A stretch of DNA of 64,000 nucleotides from Escherichia phage vB_EcoP_ShWW44: the sequence record PQ900156.1; one strand, given 5' to 3'. The notes beneath the pieces were generated by a model, which did not search any database, was not told the DNA's origin, and was given only the letters and a program-made list of their open reading frames with translations. Positions 33,721-64,000 of the stretch are shown here, piece by piece. Position 1 is the stretch's first letter; the number at the start of each line of letters is the position of its first letter. The position numbers were made by a program, and so were the translations under genes.

Positions 33721-34352
33721 CAACAACCGAACCAGTGTGCAGGAATACTCTCCCCTGTGCATTGGTTCAACTGAAGCTAATATGAACAAATTTACTATTC
33801 ACTGGCTCAATGGAAAGGTTAGTTCTTTCATGGGTGAAGAACCCGTTGAAGGAAAGAAAGTATTTCACATTGAATCGGAAGGATGCAAAATCTTAGTACC
33901 GTATGCTTGGTATAAAGAAGGTGAAGTAGAAGCATTAAAAAAGAGTAGTTAATATCGTGAAGGGTTCTGTTAGAATCCTTTGAGATAGGAACTCCTATCA
34001 TAACCTTTCTTAACTTAATCCTTGCCGTATGGCACTGACGCTAGGGTTTATGCCCATCCGTCAGGTAGACTATTTTAAGAATGGGTTATCACAGAAAATG
34101 TAAAGCAACATTCGGGTTAATCAATGGCCTCTCTCTATAGGGGCCATTTCTGAATCTTAGGCTATATCCCAAAGGTTAGTATCTTTGGGATAAGGCTTCA
34201 GATCCCTTATAAACTAACGCTCATGTTGAGCATAACACTAACCCCTACTGGCGGGTAATTCGATACGCTAGTCCTACAGCATCGAATTGTTAGGTCTTAC
34301 ATGCAACATAGGGTATAAAGGGAGGATTCGTCCCCTCCCTCCTATTATAATG

Positions 34353-34422
34353 GTCGGGGTAGCACGTAGGCATGTGCAGAAGGTCGCTACTTCTCTCGCT
34401 GGTTCGAATCCAGCCCCTGACC
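34353..34422 (+). tRNA. tRNA-like element 1 (non-canonical; isotype not assignable by hand)
   Basis: T-arm GCTGG-TTCGAAT-CCAGC; 7-bp acceptor pairing GTCGGGG/CCCTGAC with one G-U; D-stem GCAC/GTGC; short variable region; anticodon loop ambiguous. Confidence 0.35.
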
Positions 34423-34878
34423 TACTGACATCCTATCAATGAGTACATTAGGCTAACGTGCGGAGGTTTACACTGTAGCCGGTGTAGGTGGAGAAGACGG
34501 CAGGGTAGCTACCTGTGCTTAGTGTACTCTTTGATAGTTTTCGTAAGCGATTATGCGGTTTTTTAGAAATGAACCAATAACATAAATGCAAACGATGATG
34601 TTGTTCTGATGGCGGCGTAATAGCCTGTAAGTCAGCAAGGTCTTCCTATTCCTTGTAAATAAATTCGGCGCAGTGGCCCGCTGTAATTAATAATGGGCAC
34701 ACAACAGGTAAGAGCATTGGGTAATGTCAGCCTTGGTTCGAAGTCGAAAGACATGCGGTAATACCCAGCCAAAGTTCCAGTGCTCTTTCCGTTGTGGAAA
34801 TGCAAGCACAACAAGTCCAGACGATATCTGAGTGACTTTAAAAACAGATGGAGCCAGGTGGAATCCCTGGCAATCTAT

Positions 34879-37104: not shown

Positions 37105-40100
37105 TTAGTTAGTAAGATTGAGCCAAGGGTTCAGGTTATGGGCACGCAAGCCTTGACCAAAACCGAAGGAGTAACCGAGGTTGCCCTGTGCAGCAATACT
37201 AAAGATGTTGTCCTGAATAGGCAAACCAACATTACCAAACATGGTAGGGGTTGGTGCTAACATAGCCATAGCAGCATGTACTGGGTTATTACGAATCATG
37301 GACACTGCAACTTTTGCAGAACGAATCTTAAAGTTGTAGAACCACATCAGACCAACACTTTCCATATATCCACGGAAGCGACCAGGTAAACGGTCATAGT
37401 TAATGAACTCTTCTGTTACACGTCCCAGTGCCTCTTCACGAGTCTTACCTTTACGCTGAGTCAGTTCATCATAGATGATTGCTTTAGCAATAAAGTCAGA
37501 GTACTCAACTGTCTTCTGGATACCCTGGAAGAGAGCAGTATCCTTAGGGATAAGTGCATAACGACCTGCGTTACGTACAGACTTAGGCAGCTTATCAGCC
37601 AGCTTATCCATGTACTCGTGAAGTTTACCTTCAGTAATCAGGATGTCATCACGTCCAATACCTGCGTCTGCAATTGAGGAGAACTCGCCAGCTTCCAGCA
37701 GAGGCCAGATACTTAAACGCTTATGGCTATCCGTGATGGACTGAATCTCGGCCTTCAGCTTACGAATCTGGTTCGGGTTAGTAGCTGCACGTAATTCTGC
37801 TTCTGCATCTACCTGACGCAGACGAGATTTCAGGTACTGGTTAATCTCAGCAGTCTTCTGTGGAATGCTCTTAGCAATGTTCTTAACAGGCACACCACGA
37901 GCAACCATCTGGTAAAGGTTAGCCAGGAAGTTAACAGCAGGTACAACTACTGACTTAACCACAATCAGAGTCTTAGCTTCTTTAACTAAGTTCTGAACCA
38001 GGTTCTCACCACCCATTACATACTTATAGGCACGGTTACCAAATACACCCATCATAGCTTTCTTGAAGGTATCCAGTGTTTCTGGGGACCAGCGAGAATT
38101 ACCAGACCAGGCATCACCAACAGAAGCTGCACGATAACCCAGAGCATCATTGAGCATGTCACGACGTACCCACAACTCACCTGGGCCAAACAGACTTTCT
38201 GCTTTCTGACGAGTTTCACTGTTCATCAGTTTAAGAGCATCAGCAGTCACTGGGTCCAGTTTAGAACCAAGAAGGTTAACGTACTGGGACTTATTAGATG
38301 CAGACATCTTAATGTCGTTCTCATACATGCTATGCAGGTTCTCAATCAGCATATCGTTGAAACGCTGAGCCTTAGCTTCTTCCACCTGGCGACCACGCCA
38401 TACACCGATTGCACGAGCAAGATGGTTCTCACCCTCAATATGCTTCAGCATGTTAGGGTCAATAGATTGCTCATAAGCAACTACATTACCATTGGCATCA
38501 TATACAGGCAGCAGTGGTTCATTGCCACGTTCACCACGAGCCTGTGCTTTAGTGATACGGTCTACGGAAGGCTTGTCAGTAATACGACCAGCTACCATGG
38601 TTCCCATCGTAAAGCCTGTACCAAGGTCTACACCACCAGCAGTATTTCGAACGTTCTGCAGGATACCTTGTGAGAACGGAGCCTGTGCCTGTACTGGTGC
38701 AAAGTAGTAGCTACGTGCTGGTCCACGGTTAGCAGAGCTACCTTGATATGTACCCAGACGTACATAGGATTTCTCAATCAAATCAGCAAACTGACTATCT
38801 TCAGCAACAATCAGGTTAACACCTTGCTTGCTATCACTAGGTATATATCCTTTGTACTGGTTCAAGGTTGCACGACTATCAGACTTAGCTTTAGCCATTT
38901 CATCTTTACGCTGACCAACCAGGTAAGAAGTAGCAAAGTCCATGCCTTCAATTTCTGTCTGAGCCAGTGAAGATAACACCTCACGGTCAGTCTTATTCAT
39001 TGCTTCCAGTGCATACAGCGTAATGAGTTTATCCAGTTGAGCTACATCTACAACGGAACGTGTAGTCTTACGTTCACCCAGTAAACGAGAAATTGCAGTA
39101 GCATTACGCAGCAGGTTATTACCAACCGTACCATTAATCATGTACTGAGCCAGTTGCTTAGATTTACGATTAATCAGAGGCCAGTTACGTCCAGCTTGTT
39201 TCTGCAAATCTGCTTCCAGTTTATTAACCTCACGGTCAACAATCTTTTGGTCAGTCAGCAGGTCACGGATTTCATCCAGAGACATAGTATCTCGCAGAAC
39301 AGCTAAGTCAGTTTTACCCATACCAGTATGCATTGCTTTCCACTCATCATTGGTCAGCTTACGGCTGAACTTAGATGCGATAGTGGTAGGCAAATGTTCA
39401 CGGAACTGTTGACGGTCAGCCTGTACCTGTGCACGTACTGCTTTAATCAAATCATATACAGAAGCATTGCTCTTAGTACGTCCGATTATGTCATTAACCA
39501 GGTCATGGAAAGGCTGCCATACTTTACCCTGGTTCATTGCAGCCATAACACCTTCAGCTACGATTGAACCATTCTTCTCTGTAGCAATAGCAGCTACCAA
39601 TTGTGCAGCATGAGCAGCACCTTTAACCAATGGGTTCTTGGTATTAGCTGCAACTTCACGAGCACCTTCCAAAGCACGGGTAGACAGTACATCAATAGAG
39701 TCCACCAGATACTGGTTAGCACGGTCGATAGCATTACCAGTAGGTGTAGCAACGGAATCATAGAAGGACTCTGCATTAAGACTGGTCTGCATGATTGTCT
39801 GAGCCAGTGCATCCATACCTTCCTGTACGTTAGTAGCTTTAGTATCACCTGCTACACGAGCATTCAGACTAGCCATTGCAGCAGTACCGATGTTAGTCAG
39901 CATTGCGTCAACAGTATTGCCAGATTTCTTATCTGCTTTCATAACAGGAATGTCAGCCAGTACCTTACGTACTTCTTCACTTACCATTGCCAGACCAACA
40001 AAGGTAGGCAATAAAGAAGAGCGACCCTGTGCATCAAACTCAATGTTGTTAGCACCCATGATGGTATCGAACTTCTGCTGTGCATAGTAACGGTCAGCAG

Positions 40101-43100
40101 GGTTAGTACTATCTGGGTCAGCCATGAACGATTCAACAGTTAGGTTCTTAGTAACATGTGTGTAGTATTCCTGTGCACGAGCCATAGCAGCAGGGTTAAT
40201 AGCAGCCTCAGTAGCCAGTGCAGCAACGATGTTAGTGAAGAGACGCTGTTCCTGCATATTCATGGTGAAGCCATGGGCCTGAACATCACGGGTTACTTTG
40301 GTTGCATTTACTACTGCATCAGAGAACTTACCTTTACGAATTACTTGCTGTACTGGTTCTGAACCAATGTAGTCAGTAATCAGCTTATCAAAGGTCTTAC
40401 CTAACTCTTCCAGACGAGTATTGTCACCATATGCTTTGTTATGGAACAGGGTAGTGTCTTTGGCTACAGCAGCAGTAGGAGCTTGTCCACGCATTACTAC
40501 AGCAGAGTTAAACAGTAGGCCAGAGAACATATCATCTGCATTAGCCGGAGCTTTCTTACGTCCAAATACCAGACGCTTGATTGCTTCATATACAGCCTGA
40601 ACCATAGCTTTAAGTGCAGTGGTTTTCTTCTGCTTACCAATCAGTTCACGGTTGGTTAAACCCCAGGCCATGTACTCATTTAGTGCAGCAGCTTTAGCCA
40701 TTGCTGGTTCAATAAAGCCATTGGACAGGTGACCGTTAATGGTATTGAGTGCATCAGCATATGCTTCACGTACTGCCGGAGATTCATCCTTAACATCCAG
40801 AGCACGAAACTGGTTCATCAGGTCTTCAATATTCTGAACTGCTTCATTAGGAGTACCTTCATAATGAGCCAGTACAGATTCAAAAGTAGAGGCATGTACC
40901 AACTCATGAACCAGAGTCTCTAAGGAAGGGGTAACTAAATAGATGGTCTTATCTTCAAAGTTAGTCCAGCCGTATGCATTACCAGCTTCAGCAGCTTCAA
41001 TATCTTCCGGTGCTGGGCGAGTAATATTCTTCTCAATAGCATAGGCATCCAATTGAGCAGGTGTACCATAAACAACCTTATAGTCTTTAGCAGCGAGAGA
41101 TTTCTGTATTTCTTTCAGTACTGCTTGCTGTTCAGGAGACATCTCTTTAGCCAGCTTAGAGATAGCAGTATTAGACAGCAGACGTACACCAGACTTCAGT
41201 ACACGACCAACCTGTTCCATTGCTGGTACTTCTTTCACTGGTTCTGCTTTAGTAGCACGTACTGCATCACGACGCTTGTTTAATTCAGCATCAAACAGTT
41301 CGTTTAGCTTAGCTACTTGCTGGTCTACAGTAAGACCTTCCAGAGAGATTTTACCGTTGTTCACATAAGGAGCACCAACAGCAGCCATCTGGTCAACGGT
41401 GACTTGTACCTGGTCCATTACCTTGTGACGAATATCTACACCCAAAGCAATGTTACGCAGATTGCGTTCAATTAATGCAATACCAGAATCTTTAATCATA
41501 GAAATTTTATAATCTCTATCACCATCTACTCTGGTAATCTGAGCACGCTGGTCATACTCCAGAGCAGATTTAGCGATAGCCTGTTTGGTTTCATCAGACA
41601 GTTTGCTGAAATCTACGTTCTTATGAAACTTAGCAAAGGAGTCATAAACATTCTTGATAGGATTACCCTGCCAGGAAGTATATACAGCCTCATTAGCTTT
41701 ACGACTTGCGTCAGTGATGTCATTGATACCAATGTTCATACCATCAAAGATTTTCAGGGTATTCTTCGGAGCACCTTTCATAGTAGAAAGGGTCTGCATC
41801 ATCATGCCATCACCAGTACCGATGGTCATAAACGGAATACCTGCAACACCTGCCTGTGAAGGAGCATAGATGCTCATTGGCACACGCATACGGTCATCTA
41901 AGTTGGTAGCCAATACTTGGTTAGCAACATCAGTATTCTCGCTACCAGCAATGTAGAAAGTCTGGGAACCAGTCTCAATCATTGGAGCCAGTGGAGATAA
42001 GTGATTCTGAATTTCATTCAGTTCTTTCTGAGTTAAGAAATCACCTTTCTTCCATGTTGGGTCTTTTTCTTTTTCTGCCAGTTTAGCCTGTACTGCCTGT
42101 TGGAACATATCCTGCAATACCAGTGATTGAATCTGAGTAGCCTTCTGCAAATTTTCAGTAGAGTACATCAGACCTTCACCAACAGTATTTCGGATACCAT
42201 GTCGCATTGGCTCAACGAACAAGTGAAGCATGTTCTCTTGTAAGTTCTTCAGAGCATTACCGGATACAGTAAACTTCTGAGGGTCTAATTTACCGGTCAG
42301 AGCACCTTCTACCTGCTGAATAGACAACTCACCTTTACGCATAACTGGAACATTGCCAGTTAGTGCTTCCATAGAAGTAAGGAAAGTATCCAGCATAGCC
42401 TGAGCATCGGCCTCAGACGCAGCCTCCTTACCAAACATAGCCATAGCCGGGGAAATGCTAGGGTCAGCAGCACGGGCTTGCAGAACGTCACTGAAGCGTT
42501 CATAGATGGTATCAGTAATTGCACTAACCATTTTGCCAGCAATACCACGAGCACCTGAACCATAAATGGTAATGGTCAGTGGGTTTTTAGCGATACCGCG
42601 TTTCAGGTCCAGAGTACCATCTTCCTTAAGATTGAAGTCTTTAATGAATAGGTCCATTAACTTCTGGAGATGCTTCATCTGGTTCGTAACAGGAACGTTG
42701 TTACGATAAGTATTACGCAATTCATTCAGATGCCTTTGTAGACTATTAGTGGATGCTTCATACAGGTCAACGCTGTCCTCATGCGAATGATGCTCGTTCA
42801 TAGTCTTGCCAGCTTTACCGAAGAACAAGCCACCTTTAGCAGTATTCTTAATCCAGTCTGGAGTGAACTTACCACCCGTCATTAATACCATTGCGTTGAT
42901 TGGTCCGTTGGTTACACCATCAGCTTCAACGTACAGTGGGGTATTAAAGTTGGCACGGTCATCACTGTTAAGATAACAGGCATACTCCATCAGAGCCATG
43001 AGAGCTACAAATGATTTATCATTACCCAAAGGGGTCTTCAGAATATCCACAGCATCAGTAGGTAAGTGCCCAGACTTATCAAACTCAACCATCATATCAA

Positions 43101-46100
43101 CGGCAGGTTTCAATTTACCTTCCAGAGCTTTAGTCAGCTCATCCGACATAACTTCACGGGACATTTTATGAACTTTGATACCCAATGCCTGAGCCAGTCC
43201 AAGCTGGAAGTCAGAGAAGTCTTGACTGTTTTCATTACTTAAGTCGATGGTAGAGAAAGTTGGTAGGATTGCTTCACGTACCAGCTTAGCTGATTGTGGG
43301 TTGTTCTTACCAAGCATCTGCATACGACCTACACGGGTCATGTTGTAGCCGTAGTGAATAGGTGTAGTGCCAATGTCTTCTCTCTGTTCCTTAATCTGAT
43401 TGATAACACCAAACAATGGAATCTTTGCATGGACTACGGACAGGTTCTTACCTTCCAGAGATTTAGCAGTATTCACATTCAGCAATTCTGGGGTAAGAGC
43501 ACCAGCACCCATCAGTTCCAGAATGTTGTCACGACCCATTGCTTCATAGAAGTTAACCATAGGCATATGTACACGGAACTCTGTAGCCTGTTCTGCCTTA
43601 AGGGCAGCTTTCTGTTCCGGGGTATTCTTAACAGCCGGGTTACGTAACTGAGTTTGAGCCACAGAAGGGATATCATCACCCAGGTACAGTTTCTCTTCTG
43701 GTTCTAAAAGGACAGCTTCCTCAATAGCAGTAGGGAATTTGTTAATGGCATCGTTATCATCTAACTTCTCAATGGTATACAGACCAACAGTCTTATTAGA
43801 TTCTGGGTCAATCTCAGACACATCCAGCATAGACTCTTTAACTTCACCCATCTCAATGAGAGAAGACAGAATCTCTGTAGCCATTGCCATTGGGATACCC
43901 TTGGTATAACCCAGAGGTGCATTAGGATTACGATTAAGTCCCCAGTAAGATTCAATCTTTTGAGCCAATGAGTTAGTAGCTTCAACCAGAGTCTGAGCAT
44001 TCTCGAAGTCAGCCAGAATACCTTCAGGTAACAGGGATGCTTCTACACCAGTAATAGCAGCTACGTCTTTCATGTCTTTAATGGCAGCATTCTGTGTAGC
44101 AGTTAATCGCCATTGCAGACCAGCAAGTACAGCAGTCTCTAACAACTGGTCATTGAACTTAAAGGTGTCACCATCTTTCTCTACGATGTTAAGTAACTTA
44201 CCACCTACCCAACGGTTGGCCTCAGTACCTTCTGCAAAACGTTTACCAACGTTCTTGTTAGAAAGGAACTTAGCAAGACGGTCAGACAGAGTAGTCTTCA
44301 GAGTTTCACCAAAATCAAACAAGTCCTGATAACGCTTAATCACATCACTTGTGAGAGCGTTATTTTCTTTTTGAGTAAATGCTTCAAAGCGAGCAGCAGA
44401 AGACAGTGCTTTCTTAACATCAGTCAAAGGAGACACAGAACCAATGGTACGAGACTTAGGTTCTTCTGGCAGAGAAAATGCTTTAAGGAACTGGTTCGGT
44501 GTCTTGTCATTGTTATAGACAGGGAACACTGTTTCCATTTCCGATAGAGGTTTACCACCAACAGTATAGTCTGCTTTCAGTTGAGCCAGTGATACTTCTT
44601 CTTTCTCAACGTTATTGGTATTAAGCCCAGATGTATCTACACCAATCTGAATCAGTGCATTGTTTGCTTCTACGAATGATTGAACAGTATTGAATTGTTC
44701 AGCAGTTAGCTTCTGATTATCAAACAATTGCAGAGATACGAACGGTTGCTCACTACCTTTATAGAAAGTAGAACGTACAGCACCAGTATCCAGAGACATG
44801 TCACGATAACCATCATGACCAAATACGTCAGACAGACTGATATGGTCGCCATTGGAACCAACAACAGTACCATCAGCGAATAGCCATGGACTATCTCTAC
44901 GGTCACCATACTTATTAAGAGTATCTTGTGAAATAGTATTCTCTTTCACATAAGAATCTCTTTCAGATTCAGTAGGCTGTTCAACGATATCCTGTTTTTC
45001 AGACTGGTTCTCAGGTTCTTTTACAGTCTGTGGTTTAGACTCTTTAATAGTAGGTTCTGTTTTAACAGCTTCACTAACAGAGGGTTTAGTCTGTACAGTA
45101 GGGGTAACTGGTTCCTGTTTCGTAACAGGAGTTTCATCAACCTGATTCACTGGTTCATTAGTCTGTTGGGATTGAGCAGCATCAAGATTGCCCTGACGGA
45201 ACTCTTTAACTACCTGGGCAGCAGGTTTGTCCAGACGTGAATCCAATGGGGTAACTTTCACATGAGAAACATTAAGCTCCGGGTAAGCCGTAGCAAGTGC
45301 GTTAGCAATATCAGCTACGGTTTTGGCCTCCAGTCCTACTTGCTGGGCAAACTTAACAGACTTGGTATCATACGGATTGACACCGAGGCCAGTACGACTA
45401 CGTACCCATTCACGCGAGGGAGTAAGAGCCTGATAATGGACAGACTTATTCTTATCCGCATTCCCAGAAATCAGATGCTCATTCAACGCTCCGACCTTAT
45501 TCTGCATGTGCTGGGCGAACTTCATAAAGTCGTCGAGATAAGCGGAGGCCAAATCGAAGTTACCAGAGTTGTACGCAGAACGAATGCGTTTAGCATGTTG
45601 CAACGCAGAGTACTGGCCTTCATTAGAACGAGATTCGTCGGTTTTAATCTGTTTACTAACAATGTCTTGAGGACGTAAGCCTAGTTCTTCTGCTTTAGCG
45701 TCAAATTCTCGTGCTCCTTGCAATAGAGCAGCAGCAGATTGCAGGGCAGCACGCTGACGATTCCCCAGTGTAATCTTACCTTCACTTGCATGTTTCAGAA
45801 CCATGTTCACTGAATCTGCATCCAGTACTTCTGGAGACATATCAGCAGCCATAGCAATGTTGTTTGCCTGGGCTTGGTTAGCTTCTTCGGTAGCTTTCAG
45901 TTTACCTGCTTCAGCCTGTTCCTGAATCATGGAATGGATGGCACGGAATGCACGGAGTACCTTCGGTGTATTCTGTACATTAGCCATCAGACCAGAGAAC
46001 TGGTCAACGATATTAGCAGCAGGAGAACCCTGTTCCAGATTAGCCAGAGCACCCGGGTCACGGTTAATGAAGCTATCCATAGACATAATGTTGTCATACA

Positions 46101-47892
46101 TCTGGATTGCAGCTTCCATTTGAACGTTAGGGTCTTCGGCAGTATTAACCAGGTCAGCCATCTTCTGAATAGCTTCAACACGGTTAGTGGAACCAGAAAC
46201 AGCTTCACGGATTGCTGGACTAGCTTGCTCCAGTTCTACTGGGTCAAACTTCATTACCTGAGTTAAGTCAGCAGCATACTGTGTAGCAGCAGCTTTCTCT
46301 TCAGGAGAAATATCCATTGCATCCACTGCTTCCTGAACAGTTGCTTGTGCTTGTTCTGCCTGAGCAGTAGCTTCTTGTGCAGCAGCGTTAACCGTAGCGT
46401 CTGATACAGGGGATGCTTGTTCGTTACGCTTAGCAACTTCTTCACCACGCTGAACCAGGATGTTAGTAATAGGAGAAGCTACTTTTGCTAGTGCCTTACC
46501 AGCCAAAGAAGCACCAGCCAGGGTAGTACGTACAGCAGGACCAACGGCAGCACCAGCAGCCTTAACAGTTGCACCAGGAGCTTGAGCAACTCCAGCAGAA
46601 CCAAAGCCATACAATGCACCAAGACCAGTTTGTTCACCCACACCTTTAAGCAAATCACGCTTAGCATCTACATTACCCTGAATTGCCTTGTTCTGTGCGA
46701 ACTGACTTGTACCAGACTGGATACCTTCTTCTACAGTCTCACGCAACATGTTAGAACCAGCACCAACCAGTGAACCTACCTTAAGTGGGTTAAGTTCAAA
46801 CTTGGATACCAGTGGACCAGTAAGAGCAGCAACCGGAGCAGTTAAGCCAGCAGCAGTGATACCTGTTTCAGACGCAGTTTGACGACGTGCTTCTTCAGGA
46901 GATAAACCATCTTTAATATGCTGTTGGTATACAGGGGATTTAGCAGCCAGTTCACTGAACGGCATTTCCATAATTTCATTAGCAGTCTGTTGGTATGCTC
47001 CACCAGCTTCCATTCCACCAATTGCTATAGCAGGCGCAGCAACACGACCAGTAGCCATTGCAACCTGTGCAGGACGTGAACCTAACTCAGCAGCTAGGGT
47101 AATACCCTTAACAGCTTTATCACCACCTACCATTACTTTACCGAGAGCAGATACACCACGGATAAGTGGACCACCGGTAAACAGAGAACCAACACCCTCA
47201 GCCAGACCATCTGTAGCAGCCATGCCATTGGACAAAGTGTTAGCAACTGAATCGTAAGCATCACGACCAATGCGAGACAGAGAAGCAACGAGTTCACTTT
47301 CTCCTTTATCAATATCCTGCTTATAGAGTTTCTCGTTTTCCTGAGCAGATATTACGTTCTGGTTCTGTACTACATTACGACGAGCATTCAGTGCATCAGA
47401 CTGTAGGTTGTGTACACCTTTATTCAACCAGTCAAGACCGGAAGCAATGGATGCCCCGGCATTATCATTGACCAAACCTGTACCAAGAGCAGCAATGCCC
47501 CCAAGGGTATTAGCAACACCAAGACCAACACCAGAAAGGGTATCACCAAGTGCTTCACCATATGTACGACTCTTAGTTAAATCACGACGAACAGCATTAG
47601 CTGCATTGACACGAGCATTGAGAATATCCATTCCTTGCTCATTGCCATACTTGTTTATGATTTCAAGAGGGGAGGCATTAGTAAAATCTGCCTGAATAGA
47701 ACCTGGTTCAAATGCACCAGCACCTAAATCACCGGCACGGCCTGCCTGTAACTGGTAGGCGTTCTGTGGGGTTAATTGGAAAGGGCTTTGCCCTTGTTCA
47801 GCTTGTTTCCGAGAGGTTGCAGTAGAGACATCGACTTGCTTAGCAGTAGTGATGCTGTCTGCGAAACCTGCCAGACGGTCAAATGTTGACAT
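37105..47892 (-). CDS. virion-encapsidated RNA polymerase (N4 vRNAP-like), about 3,595 aa
   Basis: Single ORF of about 10.8 kb, diagnostic for N4-like phages; motif-A-like DGVTNG; track start is TTG at 47910, ATG at 47892 has AGGAA SD. Confidence 0.9.
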   Translation of the reverse strand: MSTFDRLAGFADSITTAKQVDVSTATSRKQAEQGQSPFQLTPQNAYQLQAGRAGDLGAGAFEPGSIQADFTNASPLEIINKYGNEQGMDILNARVNAANAVRRDLTKSRTYGEALGDTLSGVGLGVANTLGGIAALGTGLVNDNAGASIASGLDWLNKGVHNLQSDALNARRNVVQNQNVISAQENEKLYKQDIDKGESELVASLSRIGRDAYDSVANTLSNGMAATDGLAEGVGSLFTGGPLIRGVSALGKVMVGGDKAVKGITLAAELGSRPAQVAMATGRVAAPAIAIGGMEAGGAYQQTANEIMEMPFSELAAKSPVYQQHIKDGLSPEEARRQTASETGITAAGLTAPVAALTGPLVSKFELNPLKVGSLVGAGSNMLRETVEEGIQSGTSQFAQNKAIQGNVDAKRDLLKGVGEQTGLGALYGFGSAGVAQAPGATVKAAGAAVGPAVRTTLAGASLAGKALAKVASPITNILVQRGEEVAKRNEQASPVSDATVNAAAQEATAQAEQAQATVQEAVDAMDISPEEKAAATQYAADLTQVMKFDPVELEQASPAIREAVSGSTNRVEAIQKMADLVNTAEDPNVQMEAAIQMYDNIMSMDSFINRDPGALANLEQGSPAANIVDQFSGLMANVQNTPKVLRAFRAIHSMIQEQAEAGKLKATEEANQAQANNIAMAADMSPEVLDADSVNMVLKHASEGKITLGNRQRAALQSAAALLQGAREFDAKAEELGLRPQDIVSKQIKTDESRSNEGQYSALQHAKRIRSAYNSGNFDLASAYLDDFMKFAQHMQNKVGALNEHLISGNADKNKSVHYQALTPSREWVRSRTGLGVNPYDTKSVKFAQQVGLEAKTVADIANALATAYPELNVSHVKVTPLDSRLDKPAAQVVKEFRQGNLDAAQSQQTNEPVNQVDETPVTKQEPVTPTVQTKPSVSEAVKTEPTIKESKPQTVKEPENQSEKQDIVEQPTESERDSYVKENTISQDTLNKYGDRRDSPWLFADGTVVGSNGDHISLSDVFGHDGYRDMSLDTGAVRSTFYKGSEQPFVSLQLFDNQKLTAEQFNTVQSFVEANNALIQIGVDTSGLNTNNVEKEEVSLAQLKADYTVGGKPLSEMETVFPVYNNDKTPNQFLKAFSLPEEPKSRTIGSVSPLTDVKKALSSAARFEAFTQKENNALTSDVIKRYQDLFDFGETLKTTLSDRLAKFLSNKNVGKRFAEGTEANRWVGGKLLNIVEKDGDTFKFNDQLLETAVLAGLQWRLTATQNAAIKDMKDVAAITGVEASLLPEGILADFENAQTLVEATNSLAQKIESYWGLNRNPNAPLGYTKGIPMAMATEILSSLIEMGEVKESMLDVSEIDPESNKTVGLYTIEKLDDNDAINKFPTAIEEAVLLEPEEKLYLGDDIPSVAQTQLRNPAVKNTPEQKAALKAEQATEFRVHMPMVNFYEAMGRDNILELMGAGALTPELLNVNTAKSLEGKNLSVVHAKIPLFGVINQIKEQREDIGTTPIHYGYNMTRVGRMQMLGKNNPQSAKLVREAILPTFSTIDLSNENSQDFSDFQLGLAQALGIKVHKMSREVMSDELTKALEGKLKPAVDMMVEFDKSGHLPTDAVDILKTPLGNDKSFVALMALMEYACYLNSDDRANFNTPLYVEADGVTNGPINAMVLMTGGKFTPDWIKNTAKGGLFFGKAGKTMNEHHSHEDSVDLYEASTNSLQRHLNELRNTYRNNVPVTNQMKHLQKLMDLFIKDFNLKEDGTLDLKRGIAKNPLTITIYGSGARGIAGKMVSAITDTIYERFSDVLQARAADPSISPAMAMFGKEAASEADAQAMLDTFLTSMEALTGNVPVMRKGELSIQQVEGALTGKLDPQKFTVSGNALKNLQENMLHLFVEPMRHGIRNTVGEGLMYSTENLQKATQIQSLVLQDMFQQAVQAKLAEKEKDPTWKKGDFLTQKELNEIQNHLSPLAPMIETGSQTFYIAGSENTDVANQVLATNLDDRMRVPMSIYAPSQAGVAGIPFMTIGTGDGMMMQTLSTMKGAPKNTLKIFDGMNIGINDITDASRKANEAVYTSWQGNPIKNVYDSFAKFHKNVDFSKLSDETKQAIAKSALEYDQRAQITRVDGDRDYKISMIKDSGIALIERNLRNIALGVDIRHKVMDQVQVTVDQMAAVGAPYVNNGKISLEGLTVDQQVAKLNELFDAELNKRRDAVRATKAEPVKEVPAMEQVGRVLKSGVRLLSNTAISKLAKEMSPEQQAVLKEIQKSLAAKDYKVVYGTPAQLDAYAIEKNITRPAPEDIEAAEAGNAYGWTNFEDKTIYLVTPSLETLVHELVHASTFESVLAHYEGTPNEAVQNIEDLMNQFRALDVKDESPAVREAYADALNTINGHLSNGFIEPAMAKAAALNEYMAWGLTNRELIGKQKKTTALKAMVQAVYEAIKRLVFGRKKAPANADDMFSGLLFNSAVVMRGQAPTAAVAKDTTLFHNKAYGDNTRLEELGKTFDKLITDYIGSEPVQQVIRKGKFSDAVVNATKVTRDVQAHGFTMNMQEQRLFTNIVAALATEAAINPAAMARAQEYYTHVTKNLTVESFMADPDSTNPADRYYAQQKFDTIMGANNIEFDAQGRSSLLPTFVGLAMVSEEVRKVLADIPVMKADKKSGNTVDAMLTNIGTAAMASLNARVAGDTKATNVQEGMDALAQTIMQTSLNAESFYDSVATPTGNAIDRANQYLVDSIDVLSTRALEGAREVAANTKNPLVKGAAHAAQLVAAIATEKNGSIVAEGVMAAMNQGKVWQPFHDLVNDIIGRTKSNASVYDLIKAVRAQVQADRQQFREHLPTTIASKFSRKLTNDEWKAMHTGMGKTDLAVLRDTMSLDEIRDLLTDQKIVDREVNKLEADLQKQAGRNWPLINRKSKQLAQYMINGTVGNNLLRNATAISRLLGERKTTRSVVDVAQLDKLITLYALEAMNKTDREVLSSLAQTEIEGMDFATSYLVGQRKDEMAKAKSDSRATLNQYKGYIPSDSKQGVNLIVAEDSQFADLIEKSYVRLGTYQGSSANRGPARSYYFAPVQAQAPFSQGILQNVRNTAGGVDLGTGFTMGTMVAGRITDKPSVDRITKAQARGERGNEPLLPVYDANGNVVAYEQSIDPNMLKHIEGENHLARAIGVWRGRQVEEAKAQRFNDMLIENLHSMYENDIKMSASNKSQYVNLLGSKLDPVTADALKLMNSETRQKAESLFGPGELWVRRDMLNDALGYRAASVGDAWSGNSRWSPETLDTFKKAMMGVFGNRAYKYVMGGENLVQNLVKEAKTLIVVKSVVVPAVNFLANLYQMVARGVPVKNIAKSIPQKTAEINQYLKSRLRQVDAEAELRAATNPNQIRKLKAEIQSITDSHKRLSIWPLLEAGEFSSIADAGIGRDDILITEGKLHEYMDKLADKLPKSVRNAGRYALIPKDTALFQGIQKTVEYSDFIAKAIIYDELTQRKGKTREEALGRVTEEFINYDRLPGRFRGYMESVGLMWFYNFKIRSAKVAVSMIRNNPVHAAMAMLAPTPTMFGNVGLPIQDNIFSIAAQGNLGYSFGFGQGLRAHNLNPWLNLTN

Positions 47893-47958
47893 AGCAAGAT
47901 TCCTGTTCAAACTTATATCGTATAAGAAGATTCACTGTACAGTAAGTGAATGTAAGAG

Positions 47959-61466: not shown

Positions 61467-61643
61467 AATATTACCGTAGTTGTGTAGTTAGATTCCCCAA
61501 TAGGGCCATATCATAAGATGACTCTTAGATAATACTTAGTATGATGGGGTACATCCAGACATAGTGTCTGCCTTAGACATTATTGTAAGAAGTGCAGGTA
61601 CAGTGAGAGAATGGGGAATGCAAACAGTAAACTCTATATAGGA

Positions 61644-61669
61644 AAAGCCCCCTTAATTGGGGGCTTTTA
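61644..61669 (-). terminator. terminator hairpin (AAAGCCCCC-TTAATT-GGGGGCTTT) downstream of tailspike gene
   Basis: 9-bp stem with T-runs on both strands. Confidence 0.55.
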
Positions 61670-61682
61670 GTAATGTCACATG

Positions 61683-63590
61683 TTATACAAAGTAAACCAA
61701 TGTACCTATGATACGTGAATTATTCCCCAGTGCTGCAACAGAACCAGAAATACCCACTGCTGAGGCTGTAGATGCAGAGATCATGATATTGGAGTTCAGT
61801 GCTTCTGCTCGGATATACAAGCCATAAACAGGTAAGGCAAGTTCAGCATAGTAGCCTACACTACCTGTACCTGTGGTATCACCACACGCAAAAGGCAGAC
61901 CTAAAATTGCTGACTGATTCCCTGTACCAATAGTATTGATATGAATATCAAACTCTACTGTTACCTTACGACCTTCTTTACGGTACTTACCCTTCTGAAT
62001 GTTATAAGTAGCATTACCACCTACAGAAGGGGTCCATGTACCTTCTATAACATCAGAGGATGTCCATGCATTTGGTGATAATGGTGGGTTATTGACAACA
62101 GTGAATTTAGCACCAGCACCTGAGTTGTAGGGGATGAATACAGGATTAATACGAGCAAAGGTGTTATTAACCTGTTCATCAAGGTTGTTCATATCAATCA
62201 GAACCTGTCCATTAGCAAATGTACTAACAGCAATATCCTCTACTACCCAATCACGTAGCTTAACGTTACCATCCATCATTCCGATGATGCGACCATTATT
62301 CCCTATCTTCTCACTATGCATGTTGATGTAACAGTTACGGATTCGTACACTCTGTGGGAAAAGGTAGTTTGCAGGATTAGTCTTGTCACTAAGTACTGAA
62401 ACCATCCAAGGTCGTACAGCTGTACTCACCTCTGTGTAGTATCCATCAATAATAGCACCGTGAGCATTTGGCCCAAGAAGAATACCTCCAGTACAGTGGT
62501 GTGCGTTACCTCCAATTACACGGCACATTGTAGAGTTGATATATGCAAAGTAACCTAAGTCTTGGTTATCGTATGCACCCATTGAGCAATCACGTATGGT
62601 AAATCGTGAGTTACCGCCATCATAGGCACTACCATCAGTCTTCTTGCCAAGGAGAGCTATGAAACTACCAGTTGCTACTGTACTGAAGTAGGTATGTTTC
62701 TCACAACACTCAATGATCCCATCCCAGTTCTCATACTGAGAATAGATGTCATAGGTTGCAGAGTTACCATAGTCCATAAAGATGCAGTATCTGATTCTAG
62801 GTGTGAATACGAAGGACTTAATGAAAATACCGAAACCTGCTTGCACACCACCAGTGAATCGCAGACCCTCTATAGTGTATTCAGACTGATAGAAGTTATC
62901 AGCAGTAGGTGCATCTTCTGGAGTTGGGTCACCTAAGTACATTGCTGCACCAGTACCTGAGTAGTCCAGAGTAGCTGACTGAAAACCATATACTGCTACA
63001 GGGCGTGTAAAGTTTATACCAGTAGTATACTTATAATGACCAGCAGGAAAGATAACAGAAATGGGTGCAGAGTATTTGGCTCGGGAGTTTACCCAAGCAA
63101 CCATAGCCTGAATAGCAGCAGTGTCATCGGTAATCCCATCACCTACTGCACCAAAGTCCTTCAGACTTACCCAATCACCTAATGCAGCCTGTACAGTGCG
63201 AGCAACTTCACCAACACGTCCGGTAATGTGACCAACCTTACTAGAGCCAGTGTTAGAAGCCAGTTCGTCATATACTGCTGTAATGGCTTCATTGACTCGT
63301 ACAGCAATGTCATTTGGTGCAGGAAGTAGACTAACGGTAATACCCCCTGGGTTATAGGTTAATTGGTCACCATTTACATTAGCAATGGTTGCCCCGGAGG
63401 GGAGAGTAGGTAAAGTCCATATCTTCTTAGCATTACGATCGAAGAGTATAGTCTTATCATCTAGCAATGTATTAGTATTCGTACTGAGAATAACTTTACC
63501 TTCTGCTACGTTACATGCACGAGCAATGGCTTGTATATTGGTAAGAATACCCGTAGAGCCTTTACCACCTTGAGAGAACATCTCGTTCAT
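61683..63590 (-). CDS. tailspike/tail fibre with pectate-lyase-like right-handed beta-helix (putative polysaccharide depolymerase), 635 aa
   Basis: LKDFGAVGDGITDDTAAIQAMV signature typical of the pectate lyase superfamily; AGAGG SD. Confidence 0.7.
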   Translation of the reverse strand: MNEMFSQGGKGSTGILTNIQAIARACNVAEGKVILSTNTNTLLDDKTILFDRNAKKIWTLPTLPSGATIANVNGDQLTYNPGGITVSLLPAPNDIAVRVNEAITAVYDELASNTGSSKVGHITGRVGEVARTVQAALGDWVSLKDFGAVGDGITDDTAAIQAMVAWVNSRAKYSAPISVIFPAGHYKYTTGINFTRPVAVYGFQSATLDYSGTGAAMYLGDPTPEDAPTADNFYQSEYTIEGLRFTGGVQAGFGIFIKSFVFTPRIRYCIFMDYGNSATYDIYSQYENWDGIIECCEKHTYFSTVATGSFIALLGKKTDGSAYDGGNSRFTIRDCSMGAYDNQDLGYFAYINSTMCRVIGGNAHHCTGGILLGPNAHGAIIDGYYTEVSTAVRPWMVSVLSDKTNPANYLFPQSVRIRNCYINMHSEKIGNNGRIIGMMDGNVKLRDWVVEDIAVSTFANGQVLIDMNNLDEQVNNTFARINPVFIPYNSGAGAKFTVVNNPPLSPNAWTSSDVIEGTWTPSVGGNATYNIQKGKYRKEGRKVTVEFDIHINTIGTGNQSAILGLPFACGDTTGTGSVGYYAELALPVYGLYIRAEALNSNIMISASTASAVGISGSVAALGNNSRIIGTLVYFV

Positions 63591-63885
63591 AGCAACCTCT
63601 TTGTTTTTCTAGAAGACCTCGCTTCAGCGGGGTCTTATAACTAGGTAAGTACACGGTAGCGTAGGCCAGTATGCATTATCTTATCTAGACTTTTCCTCTT
63701 ACTAGATACAATAACCATCCATTCCCTCCTACAATGTTACACCAACCTTTCATATTAATACTTGGAATACACTAAGAGCAAACCTAGATAGTCAGGGAAC
63801 AAGTCATAGACTCCAGAGCGGCACTCATAGGTGTGCTGTGAGCTATCATAGGTCTGCCCTTGTGTACACTAAGATATTAACCTGC

Positions 63886-64000
63886 TTACGCAGAAGATAC
63901 AGAAGGTTTCTTCATTGCACGACGTTGTACATCCTTAGCAATGGCGTAAGCCTGCTTAGGGTCACACTCTTCCTTGATGAGTTCTTCTGTGTTCCGGCGT
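63886..64000 (-). CDS. 3' end of an upstream late gene (partial; continues beyond the window)
   Basis: Open frame from the window edge to a TAA stop at 63886-63888 on the minus strand. Confidence 0.3.
   Translation of the reverse strand, partial: RRNTEELIKEECDPKQAYAIAKDVQRRAMKKPSVSSA

What the first reader, a model, noticed from the sequence alone, without database searches (positions are those of the whole stretch)
61683..63590. Tailspike with pectate-lyase-like beta-helix: probable polysaccharide depolymerase
The DFGAVGDGITDDTAAIQA motif is a hallmark of right-handed beta-helix pectate-lyase-superfamily tailspikes that degrade capsule/EPS/LPS; it could indicate host-receptor specificity.
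Basis: partly seen in the sequence, partly recalled or inferred. Interest (0 to 1): 0.45.

Follow-up and report, generated by a model that had tools for sequence, protein, structure and literature searches.

The report
Annotated N4-like phage beta-helix tailspike
This is the already annotated side tailspike of the N4-like coliphage St11Ph5, a three-module beta-helix protein that most likely binds and cuts a host surface sugar chain (probably O-antigen); it is an ordinary member of a well-known class whose enzyme activity is still untested.

Summary

The window is 100% identical to Escherichia phage St11Ph5 (Gamaleyavirus). This gene is annotated there as "tail spike protein" (gp63.1 analogue), and a published paper already calls it a predicted lyase.

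It has three exchangeable modules:
- a docking head (1-~125) like G7C gp63.1 and CBA120 TSP1, which should attach it to the neighbouring fibre gp66;
- a beta-helix (~126-485);
- a C-terminal beta-sandwich knob (~486-635) resembling the Det7 gp208 C-terminus and viral fibre heads.

The motif marks the fold, not a chemistry: hydrolases, lyases, epimerases and adhesins all share it.

The nearest relatives with a known host (55% identity) are P22-like prophage tailspikes next to O-antigen acyltransferases. They occur almost only in O7 E. coli, at least 45 of 52 carriers against a 1.8% base rate. That favours an O-antigen glycosidase over a lyase.

Activity is unproven, and published resistant host mutants keep normal LPS. 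Ordinary and already known; low interest.

The parts
61683..63590 (-). Complete tailspike gene (635 aa plus TAA stop), the St11Ph5 analogue of G7C gp63.1
   Evidence: ORF list. 100% identity to MG208881/NC_070873 61683-63590, annotated tail fiber / tail spike protein.
63216..63590 (-). Head module, residues 1-125. It comprises the conserved N-terminal peptide MNEMFSQGGKGSTGILTN, an alpha/beta D1 domain (~14-95), an alpha-helical neck (95-110) and the start of a flexible linker. Predicted docking module for gp66.
   Evidence: Sequence matches to the N-termini of CBA120 TSP1 (4oj5 1-88), G7C gp63.1 (4qnl 1-91), TSP2 D1 (6w4q 170-248) and 9d80_D 307-405. 40% identity to G7C gp63.1 over residues 1-86, with the first ~25 codons near-identical in DNA. 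Secondary structure and pLDDT. Homology with body-sharing relatives starts at residues 108-141, varying by relative.
63105..63158 (-). The quoted motif DFGAVGDGITDDTAAIQA (residues 145-162), the N-terminal cap of the beta-helix
   Evidence: Translation. G147, G150, D151, D155 and A159 are at least 90% conserved in 31 homologues. This is the only stretch that aligns by sequence to solved beta-helix enzymes of several mechanistic classes.
62136..63215 (-). Body module, residues ~126-485: linker plus a right-handed parallel beta-helix, the presumed glycan-binding and catalytic groove
61686..62135 (-). C-terminal module, residues ~486-635: a beta-sandwich 'knob' (core 509-635). It is independently mobile and has no Pfam family.
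63596..63600 (-). Ribosome-binding site AGAGG, 6 nt before the ATG
   Evidence: Read directly from the sequence. Conserved with G7C.
63614..63635 (-). Stem-loop immediately upstream of the gene: 9 stem positions with one mismatch, loop UGAA. It corresponds to the CCCCGCTTCGGCGGGG repeat that flanks gene 63.1 in G7C.
   Evidence: RNA fold -14.7 kcal/mol, z=-4.2. Alignment with G7C. G7C repeat_region annotation. Discussed as a cassette boundary in bioRxiv 10.1101/542787.
61643..61668 (-). Terminator-like hairpin starting 15 nt after the stop codon: perfect 10-bp stem AAAAGCCCCC/GGGGGCUUUU, loop AAUUAA
   Evidence: RNA fold -17.5 kcal/mol, z=-3.7. The scan reported the same hairpin on the opposite strand. 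Sequence.

Best explanation
The gene encodes the distal, side-branch tailspike of the two-protein host-recognition device of the N4-like podovirus St11Ph5.

Proposed mechanism (steps shown versus inferred are marked in the full report):
1. The protein forms a homotrimer.
2. Its N-terminal head (conserved peptide plus D1 domain and helical neck) docks onto the T4-gp10-like XD3 domain of the neighbouring fibre gp66, which anchors the complex to the virion neck.
3. The central right-handed beta-helix binds a host surface polysaccharide. This is most likely the O-antigen of the isolation host, reported as O5ab. It cleaves the chain as an endo-glycosidase (hydrolase), using conserved acidic residues. 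That lets the virion work down through the O-antigen layer.
4. The C-terminal beta-sandwich knob caps and stabilises the trimer and may add a second glycan or receptor contact.

The three modules are separately exchangeable cassettes. The same body is fused to different virion-attachment heads in other phage types.
For: Identity and position:
- The window is 100% identical to St11Ph5. The gene is annotated as tail spike, gp63.1 analogue, lying between gp63 (holin/lysis side) and gp66.

Docking:
- The head matches G7C gp63.1 and CBA120 TSP1 N-termini.
- Adjacent gp66 matches PDB 9d80_D ('Tail fiber protein') over residues 1-383 at E=6e-150, and the XD2-XD3-D1 region of CBA120 TSP2 and TSP4-N.
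- In G7C, gp63.1 binding needs the gp66 XD3 domain. In CBA120 the TSP1 head binds TSP4 XD3 (PMC8825819).

Fold:
- PF12708 hit, confident AF2 beta-helix.
- Foldseek matches to the O-antigen tailspikes CBA120 TSP2, Det7 gp208, HK620 and Sf6.

O-antigen and hydrolase:
- The nearest relatives with a known host (55% identity over residues 108-635) are tailspikes of P22-like prophages with a P22 head-binding domain. They sit next to an Acyl_transf_3+SGNH acyltransferase and an integrase.
- A truncated relic lies at att-lambda of E. coli B/BL21/REL606 between two acyltransferases.
- At least 45 of the 52 complete E. coli genomes that carry this body also carry the O7 wzy gene, against 97 of 5426 overall. 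All three intact copies are in O7 strains.
- The O7 gene cluster encodes only neutral or amino sugars: rfbBDAC, vioAB, manCB, wbbD. A beta-elimination lyase would have no substrate there.
- D273, D324, D334 and E387 are conserved in at least 87% of 31 family members, together with several aromatics.
- The allelic gp63.1 of the sister phage Alt63 was shown to collapse the host LPS ladder (bioRxiv 10.1101/542787).

C-terminal knob:
- C-terminal modules of the depolymerase KP32gp38 drive trimerisation and substrate binding (PMC13082707).
Against: - No enzymatic assay exists for this protein.
- St11Ph5-resistant mutants of host UP11 all kept a wild-type LPS ladder. The phage also inhibits rough E. 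coli 4s mutants. The authors conclude that infection can bypass O-antigen recognition (PMC6393563).
- The O7 link concerns relatives at only 55% identity, and specificity can change at that distance. Many of the 52 carrier genomes are clonal laboratory B derivatives.
- The O5ab type of UP11 is 'unpublished data' in PMC5764931. I could not retrieve the O5 repeat-unit structure from a held paper. Only the presence of D-Ribf in O5 was confirmed.
- gp66 is itself a second beta-helix spike and could be the one that matters on UP11.
- Trimer state and gp66 binding are inferred from homologues only.
Confidence: 0.55

Rival explanations
1. It is a polysaccharide lyase, as the published annotation 'predicted lyase' says. 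It would cut an acidic polymer of the uropathogenic host, such as a K-antigen capsule, colanic acid or another uronic-acid-containing exopolysaccharide, by beta-elimination rather than cutting O-antigen.
For: - Kulikov et al. call it a predicted lyase (PMC6393563).
- Resistant mutants keep normal LPS, which would fit a non-LPS substrate.
- Several conserved basic residues (R244, R329, R265, R267, K298) could serve a lyase.
- Weak PHROG hits are labelled colanic acid degradation or EPS depolymerase.
Against: - The 'lyase' label derives from the name of the fold family. No polysaccharide-lyase Pfam or NCBIfam family is matched.
- The PHROG colanic-acid and EPS hits cover only the head and cap (residues 16-204).
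- The closest relatives with known hosts track the neutral O7 antigen and sit in O-antigen seroconversion modules.
- The most similar solved whole architecture is Det7 gp208. One review table lists that phage's two solved spikes as LPS-specific, O3,10 and O4 (PMC11721090).
Confidence: 0.15
2. It is mainly a binding module or a dispensable accessory spike. Either it is catalytically weak or inactive and acts as an adhesin, or it is active only on hosts other than UP11. In that case infection of UP11 would rely on gp66 or on direct recognition of a secondary receptor.
For: - LPS is unchanged in all resistant UP11 mutants, and the phage has activity on rough 4s mutants.
- gp66 carries its own beta-helix, 87-88% identical to the tailspike of a Vectrevirus.
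- In KP32 the second receptor-binding protein is not essential for assembly and infection (section heading in PMC13082707).
Against: - Acidic and aromatic groove-type residues are strongly conserved across relatives down to 27% identity, which suggests selection on catalysis.
- The gene is kept 98% and 76% identical in two other ~70-kb N4-like contigs.
- Every characterised gp63.1 allele (G7C esterase, Alt63 depolymerase) is enzymatic, and the G7C one is required for infection.
Confidence: 0.15
3. It modifies rather than cleaves the glycan, for example by removing O-acetyl groups as G7C gp63.1 does.
For: - G7C gp63.1, the positional homologue, is an O-antigen deacetylase.
- The relatives sit beside O-antigen acyltransferases.
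Against: - The G7C esterase body is unrelated. Only residues 1-86 align.
- No SGNH or esterase family is matched.
- The body is a beta-helix, not a hydrolase/esterase fold.
Confidence: 0.03

Closest known systems
G7C gp63.1 and its allelic variant in phage Alt63 (Gamaleyavirus branched adhesin gp66 + gp63.1)
   Same: - Same genome position, between gene 63 and gene 66, in a collinear N4-like genome.
- Same N-terminal peptide and head domain.
- Same flanking stem-loop.
- Same expected partner, gp66, with XD2/XD3 domains.
   Different: - The receptor-binding body is unrelated to the G7C SGNH-type esterase.
- Only about the first 25 residues are highly conserved. The rest of the head is closer to the D1 domains of gp66-like and TSP2-like proteins.
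- Unlike G7C and Alt63, St11Ph5 did not select LPS-altered resistant mutants.
Salmonella phage Det7 tailspike gp208 (PDB 6F7D/6F7K)
   Different: - No detectable sequence similarity. It is absent from the profile-versus-PDB hits, with 14-16% identity in the structural alignments.
- Different phage family (Ackermannviridae) and host.
- Its substrate is a Salmonella O-antigen, as listed in a review table (PMC11721090).
CBA120 TSP1/TSP2 (Kuttervirus branched tailspike complex)
   Same: - D1 head, helical neck, D3 beta-helix and D4 C-terminal domain layout (PMC8825819).
- N-terminal 18 residues are nearly identical to TSP1.
- Best Foldseek hit is TSP2.
   Different: - Like TSP2, it has only D1 and no D2 domain.
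- The body sequence is unrelated.
- It docks on a podovirus fibre rather than a myovirus baseplate complex.
P22-like prophage tailspike WP_060618122 (P0022) of O7 E. coli, and its truncated relic in E. coli B/BL21/REL606
   Same: - Homologous beta-helix plus C-terminal knob, 55-56% identity over residues 108-635 and 192-633.
- Same conserved acidic and aromatic positions.
   Different: - A P22 head-binding domain (PF09008) replaces the gp63.1-type head.
- Temperate context with an O-antigen acyltransferase and an integrase.
- Linked to serogroup O7, whereas the St11Ph5 host is reported as O5ab.

Membership tests
Pectate-lyase-like right-handed beta-helix superfamily (Pfam PF12708 Pect-lyase_RHGA_epim) | Sequence match to the family profile above the curated threshold | tested here: met
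   45 bits against a cut-off of 27, E=1.5e-11, residues 140-212.
Pectate-lyase-like right-handed beta-helix superfamily (Pfam PF12708 Pect-lyase_RHGA_epim) | Right-handed parallel beta-helix fold | tested here: met
gp63.1/TSP1-type secondary tailspike of a branched receptor-binding complex | N-terminal docking head homologous to G7C gp63.1 and CBA120 TSP1 | tested here: met
   4oj5 residues 1-88 (stretch E=1.9e-9), 4qnl residues 1-91 (E=1.2e-10). 40% identity to G7C gp63.1 over residues 1-86.
gp63.1/TSP1-type secondary tailspike of a branched receptor-binding complex | Adjacent primary fibre carrying T4-gp10-like XD2/XD3 branching domains | tested here: met
   St11Ph5 gp66 (record 64035-66872, just outside the window) matches 9d80_D residues 1-384 at E=6e-150, CBA120 TSP2 residues 18-246, and TSP4-N residues 227-335.
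gp63.1/TSP1-type secondary tailspike of a branched receptor-binding complex | Physical binding to gp66, homotrimer state, presence in the virion | not testable with these tools
   Only a monomer was modelled. Binding is known for the homologues only (PMC8825819).
O-antigen endoglycosidase tailspikes (P22 / Sf6 / HK620 / Det7 / CBA120 type) | Beta-helix body followed by a C-terminal trimer-capping beta domain | tested here: met
O-antigen endoglycosidase tailspikes (P22 / Sf6 / HK620 / Det7 / CBA120 type) | Pair or triad of acidic catalytic residues in the substrate groove | tested here: inconclusive
   D231, E237, D273, E294, D324, D334 and E387 are conserved in at least 81% of 31 homologues. 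Their spatial arrangement could not be examined, and alignment to solved enzymes is limited to the cap.
O-antigen endoglycosidase tailspikes (P22 / Sf6 / HK620 / Det7 / CBA120 type) | Cleavage of the host O-antigen | not testable with these tools
   Indirect support only: relatives are tied to O7 strains and to seroconversion genes. Counter-evidence: LPS is unchanged in resistant mutants.
Polysaccharide lyases (pectate lyase PL1/PL3/PL9, phage K5 or K1 lyases) | Sequence membership in a lyase family | tested here: not met
   No lyase family in Pfam at E<=1 or in NCBIfam at E<=0.01. The profile-versus-PDB hits to '7chu putative pectin lyase' and '5olp pectate lyase' cover only the cap, positions ~131-205.
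Polysaccharide lyases (pectate lyase PL1/PL3/PL9, phage K5 or K1 lyases) | Uronic-acid substrate and unsaturated products | not testable with these tools
   The O7 cluster of the relatives' hosts encodes no uronic-acid sugar pathway. The substrate of this protein is unknown.
Glycoside hydrolase family 28 (polygalacturonase / rhamnogalacturonase) | Match to the GH28 profile (PF00295) | tested here: not met
   Not among the Pfam hits at E<=1. The NCBIfam rhamnogalacturonidase model scores 17 bits against a cut-off of 500.

The most novel reading that the evidence does not exclude
The C-terminal ~150-residue knob may be an independent receptor-binding head, not just a trimer cap. The same module occurs at 40-50% identity as the tip of many short phage fibre proteins, has no Pfam family, and has the fold of viral fibre heads. 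It would give the spike a second, O-antigen-independent ligand on the outer membrane or core. That could explain why St11Ph5, unlike its sister phages G7C and Alt63, acts on rough cells and selects resistant mutants with unchanged LPS.
Probability: 0.15. Interest if true: 0.5.

Novelty: already known. Interest (0 to 1): 0.18.

Why it matters
Tailspikes set phage host range. St11Ph5 was isolated on a uropathogenic E. coli strain for which phages are hard to find. Knowing which glycan this spike recognises would help phage-therapy matching, and it could give an O-serogroup-specific enzyme or probe.

- 'Lyase' is only a fold label here.
- The nearest host-attributable relatives are O-antigen-module tailspikes tied to serogroup O7, including a relic in E. 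coli B/BL21.
- The protein is a three-cassette mosaic whose C-terminal knob is a widespread, uncatalogued fibre-head-like domain.

None of this changes the basic picture of an ordinary tailspike.

Tried and rejected
- Profile of 31 homologues against all PDB sequences. It only recovered the N-terminal cap and the head, so catalytic residues could not be transferred from solved enzymes.
- NCBIfam scan: nothing near threshold.
- Literature search for PDB codes 9D80-9D84: only unrelated hits, so the origin of those gp66-like and Gp48/Gp49 structures is unknown to me.
- Attempt to read the 2026 epsilon15 tailspike preprint that cites 6F7K/6F7D: not held.
- Attempt to retrieve the O5 and O7 repeat-unit structures from the E. 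coli O-antigen review. The main text confirms D-Ribf in O5, but the structure tables are not held. Gal-beta-1,3-GlcNAc in O7 was confirmed from PMC4202792.
- Search for a closer cultured-phage relative of the body: none above 60% identity except St11Ph5 itself.
- The Mimir124 paper only cites the St11Ph5 genome paper and says nothing about a capsule on that host.
- The ShWW44 announcement gives no host serotype.
- Considered and rejected: that the motif indicates an endosialidase (PF12218 at 14 bits, below its 26.3 cut-off); that the short plus-strand ORFs inside the gene are real (58-80 aa, no support).
Full report
**1. What is in the sequence**

Window 61683-63590 holds one uninterrupted ORF on the minus strand. 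It runs from ATG at 63590 to TAA at 61683-61685 and encodes 635 aa. An AGAGG ribosome-binding site lies 6 nt upstream.

The gene sits between two strong hairpins:
- 63614-63635, just before the ribosome-binding site: -14.7 kcal/mol, z=-4.2.
- 61643-61668, starting 15 nt after the stop: a perfect 10-bp stem followed by UUUU, -17.5 kcal/mol, z=-3.7.

**2. Where the window comes from**

The gene is 100% identical to Escherichia phage St11Ph5 (MG208881 / NC_070873; Schitoviridae, Gamaleyavirus), at the same coordinates. It is annotated there as 'tail fiber protein' / 'tail spike protein', note gp63.1.

The rest of the window fits an N4-like genome. It holds a 3601-aa virion RNA polymerase ORF, portal, major head protein, holin, muramidase, spanins, and one tRNA-Ala.

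The genome announcement states that St11Ph5 was isolated on uropathogenic E. coli up11 (O5ab, unpublished data). [quoted passage not shown] A later paper calls this protein a predicted lyase (PMC6393563). So the object is already annotated and discussed.

**3. Fold**

- Pfam PF12708 is matched above threshold: 45 against 27 bits, residues 140-212.
- An AlphaFold2 model built on 31 homologues has mean pLDDT 82.9. Its layout is:
  - an alpha/beta head, residues ~14-95;
  - a helix, 95-110;
  - a low-confidence linker, 118-137;
  - an all-beta region, 140-~485, with pLDDT mostly above 90;
  - a beta-sandwich, 509-635.
- Foldseek against PDB gives tailspikes first: CBA120 TSP2 E=1.5e-14, Det7 gp208 E=2.7e-12, then HK620, TSP3 and Sf6.
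  - adhesin PfbA;
  - lyases RbmB, K5 and K1;
  - epimerase AlgE4;
  - hydrolases GH110, GH28, GH87 and GH82;
  - many tailspikes.

**4. What the motif does and does not say**

A profile of the family searched against all PDB sequences aligns to solved beta-helix proteins only over positions ~131-205, the cap and first coils. The partners include GH55 beta-1,3-glucanases, PfbA, AlgE epimerases, polygalacturonases, iota-carrageenase and a pectate lyase.

The motif is therefore a signature of the fold's N-terminal cap, not of a reaction type. No lyase, GH28 or esterase family is matched in Pfam or NCBIfam. The 'lyase' in the literature label and in the family name is not evidence for beta-elimination.

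**5. Modular anatomy**

BLASTP against the homologues gives sharp borders:
- Two N4-like-sized contigs carry the whole protein: 98% identity on a 71 kb contig and 76% on a 70 kb contig.
- Many proteins share only residues ~126-635 (75% identity, on ~44-45 kb contigs).
- Some share only 1-190 (other ~72 kb contigs).
- P0036 shares 146-513 but not the C-terminus.

The same body is found behind at least four different virion-attachment heads:
- the gp63.1/TSP1 head (this phage);
- PF18668 Tail_spike_N;
- the P22 head-binding domain PF09008;
- a T7 tail-fibre N-terminus, PF03906.

One ~45 kb contig carrying it has a lambda-type tail gene (DUF1833) and a PolA/SNF2 replication module, so it looks siphovirus-like. 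This is the classic cassette behaviour of tailspikes.

**6. The head and its partner**

- Residues 1-18 are almost identical to the N-termini of G7C gp63.1 and CBA120 TSP1. The head as a whole is 40% identical to G7C gp63.1 over residues 1-86. At the DNA level only about the first 25 codons and the upstream hairpin plus ribosome-binding site are closely conserved.
- Residues 19-202 are 37% identical to residues 307-479 of St11Ph5 gp66, the equivalent D1, neck and cap region.
- gp66 (record 64035-66872, just beyond the window end) matches PDB 9d80_D ('Tail fiber protein') over its first 383 residues at E=6e-150. It also matches the XD2-XD3-D1 region of CBA120 TSP2 and TSP4-N.
- Published work shows that gp63.1 binding to gp66 needs the gp66 XD3 domain, and that the TSP1 head binds TSP4 XD3 (PMC8825819).

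Docking of this spike on gp66 is thus inferred by homology. It was not shown here.

**7. The C-terminal knob**

Modelled alone (pLDDT 87.8), it matches:

In an exhaustive search of 1.84 billion representatives with the body (residues 126-635):
- only 25 proteins reach E<=1e-30;
- 1250 reach E<=1e-10;
- about two thirds of the best 150 match only residues ~486-635, at 40-50% identity, in proteins of 130-970 aa.

Those proteins have no Pfam family for this module, and PHROGs calls it 'unknown'. Two examples sit in phage fibre clusters beside Peptidase_S74 fibre genes, and one cluster also holds a C1q-domain fibre.

By analogy with KP32gp38, such C-terminal modules serve trimerisation and/or substrate binding (PMC13082707). 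Which applies here is unknown.

**8. What substrate, what chemistry**

No cultured phage in the 50,697-record collection other than St11Ph5 has this body above 60% identity. The nearest relatives with an identifiable host are two kinds:

(a) A 648-aa tailspike of P22-like prophages at argW, 55% identical over residues 108-635. It is followed by an Acyl_transf_3+SGNH acyltransferase and an integrase. From my own knowledge, that is the domain architecture of OafA-type O-antigen acetyltransferases, and the layout is typical of a seroconversion module.

(b) A 445-aa N-terminally truncated relic in the defective prophage at att-lambda of E. coli B, BL21, REL606 and other strains, lying between two acyltransferase genes.

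The host of an intact copy, strain 81, has an O7 gene cluster: 'O7 family' wzx and wzy, vioAB, rfbBDAC, manCB, wbbD.
- O7 wzy occurs in 97 of 5426 complete E. coli genomes.
- The body occurs in 52 genomes.
- At least 45 of those 52 are among the 83 O7 genomes I could list.
- All three intact copies (strains 81, Br_167_kylling, 2018-05-5CC) are in O7 strains.
- The two prophage versions differ by ~18% in DNA and sit at different loci.

Many carriers are clonal B derivatives, so the count overstates independence. Even so, the link to O7 is clear.

The O7 cluster encodes only neutral and N-acetylamino sugars. Gal-beta-1,3-GlcNAc in O7 is confirmed in PMC4202792. A lyase would have nothing to eliminate, so these relatives, if active, must be hydrolases.

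Acidic residues D231, E237, D273, E294, D324, D334 and E387, and aromatics Y238, W289, Y350, Y385 and W448, are conserved across the 31-member family. That is consistent with a shared glycosidase groove.

From my own recollection, unverified here except for the Ribf component, the O5 unit (Qui3NAc, Ribf, Gal, GalNAc) is also free of uronic acid. My best reading is therefore an O-antigen endoglycosidase.

**9. Evidence that cuts the other way**

- Kulikov et al. found that St11Ph5 gives growth inhibition on rough E. coli 4s mutants.
- All St11Ph5-resistant UP11 clones kept a wild-type LPS ladder.
- The authors concluded that this phage can bypass O-antigen recognition, unlike G7C and Alt63 (PMC6393563).
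- St11Ph5 also has a second beta-helix spike. gp66 carries PF12708, and its body is 87-88% identical to the tailspike of Vectrevirus T205P4/P5.

So this spike may be dispensable on UP11, may act on another polymer, or may serve other hosts. I could not test any of these.

**10. Shown versus inferred**

Shown here:
- the ORF and its identity to the St11Ph5 gene;
- the fold;
- the module borders;
- the homology of the head and of gp66 to characterised branched complexes;
- the O7 association of the nearest relatives;
- the spread of the C-terminal module.

Taken from papers:
- gp63.1-gp66 and TSP1-TSP4 binding;
- the Alt63 depolymerase activity;
- the phenotype of the resistant mutants.

Inferred:
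- trimer state;
- docking on gp66;
- depolymerase activity;
- O-antigen as substrate;
- hydrolase chemistry;
- the role of the knob.

**11. Verdict**

The finding is real and its interpretation is essentially right. It is an already annotated, typical tailspike, so novelty is 'already known' and interest is low.

The only mildly unusual points are the conflict between a conserved enzyme-like spike and the reported O-antigen-independent infection, and the uncatalogued, widely shared C-terminal fibre-head-like module.

Noticed in passing
window 63762-64000 (minus strand), continuing to record position 64035: The spacer between the gp66 stop and the tailspike gene includes a 49-aa ORF. It is 90-94% identical to the right-end region of ~44-kb SP6/K1E-like podophages (Vectrevirus ACG-C91, PST_H2, fTuEco01). 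The first 161 nt also match the K1E endosialidase locus X78310 at ~90%. G7C has only ~47 nt at this position. With gp66's body being 87-88% identical to a Vectrevirus tailspike, the gp66 body and its 3' flank look imported as one cassette.
   Followed up: partly
L001 5573-8410 (record 64035-66872; outside the window): The partner fibre gp66 is itself a second pectate-lyase-like beta-helix spike (PF12708 at residues 425-484). St11Ph5 therefore carries two putative depolymerases of different origin. Either could be the one that matters on the isolation host.
   Followed up: partly
L008 9080-10417 (E. coli ATCC 11303, NZ_CP140008.1 3042426-3043763); the same locus occurs in REL606, BL21 and NEBExpress: Laboratory E. 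coli B strains keep an N-terminally truncated relic (445 aa, annotated hypothetical) of a tailspike 56% identical to this one. It lies in the defective prophage at att-lambda, between two acyltransferase genes. Carriage of this body among complete E. coli genomes tracks the O7 wzy gene almost perfectly.
   Followed up: partly
window 61686-62135 (residues 486-635): The C-terminal module is a widespread stand-alone domain. It occurs at 40-50% identity at the C-terminus of many 130-970 aa proteins, including short fibre proteins in phage fibre clusters. It has no Pfam family and PHROG lists it as 'unknown'. Its fold is that of viral fibre heads.
   Followed up: partly
record metadata of MG208881 / NC_070873 (whole window): The database record gives host 'Escherichia coli 4s' and source 'horse feces'. 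The genome paper says the phage was isolated from sewage on uropathogenic strain up11. The host field of the record appears to be wrong or copied from G7C.
   Followed up: no
window 61643-61668 and 63614-63635: Strong hairpins bracket the tailspike gene. The upstream one is conserved with the 16-nt repeat that flanks gene 63.1 in G7C. A preprint proposed that this stem-loop marks or promotes cassette exchange (10.1101/542787).
   Followed up: partly
window 34352-34423 (+) and 37105-47910 (-): A tRNA-Ala (anticodon CGC) and a 3601-aa ORF of the size of the N4-type virion RNA polymerase. Both are expected for this genus.
   Followed up: no
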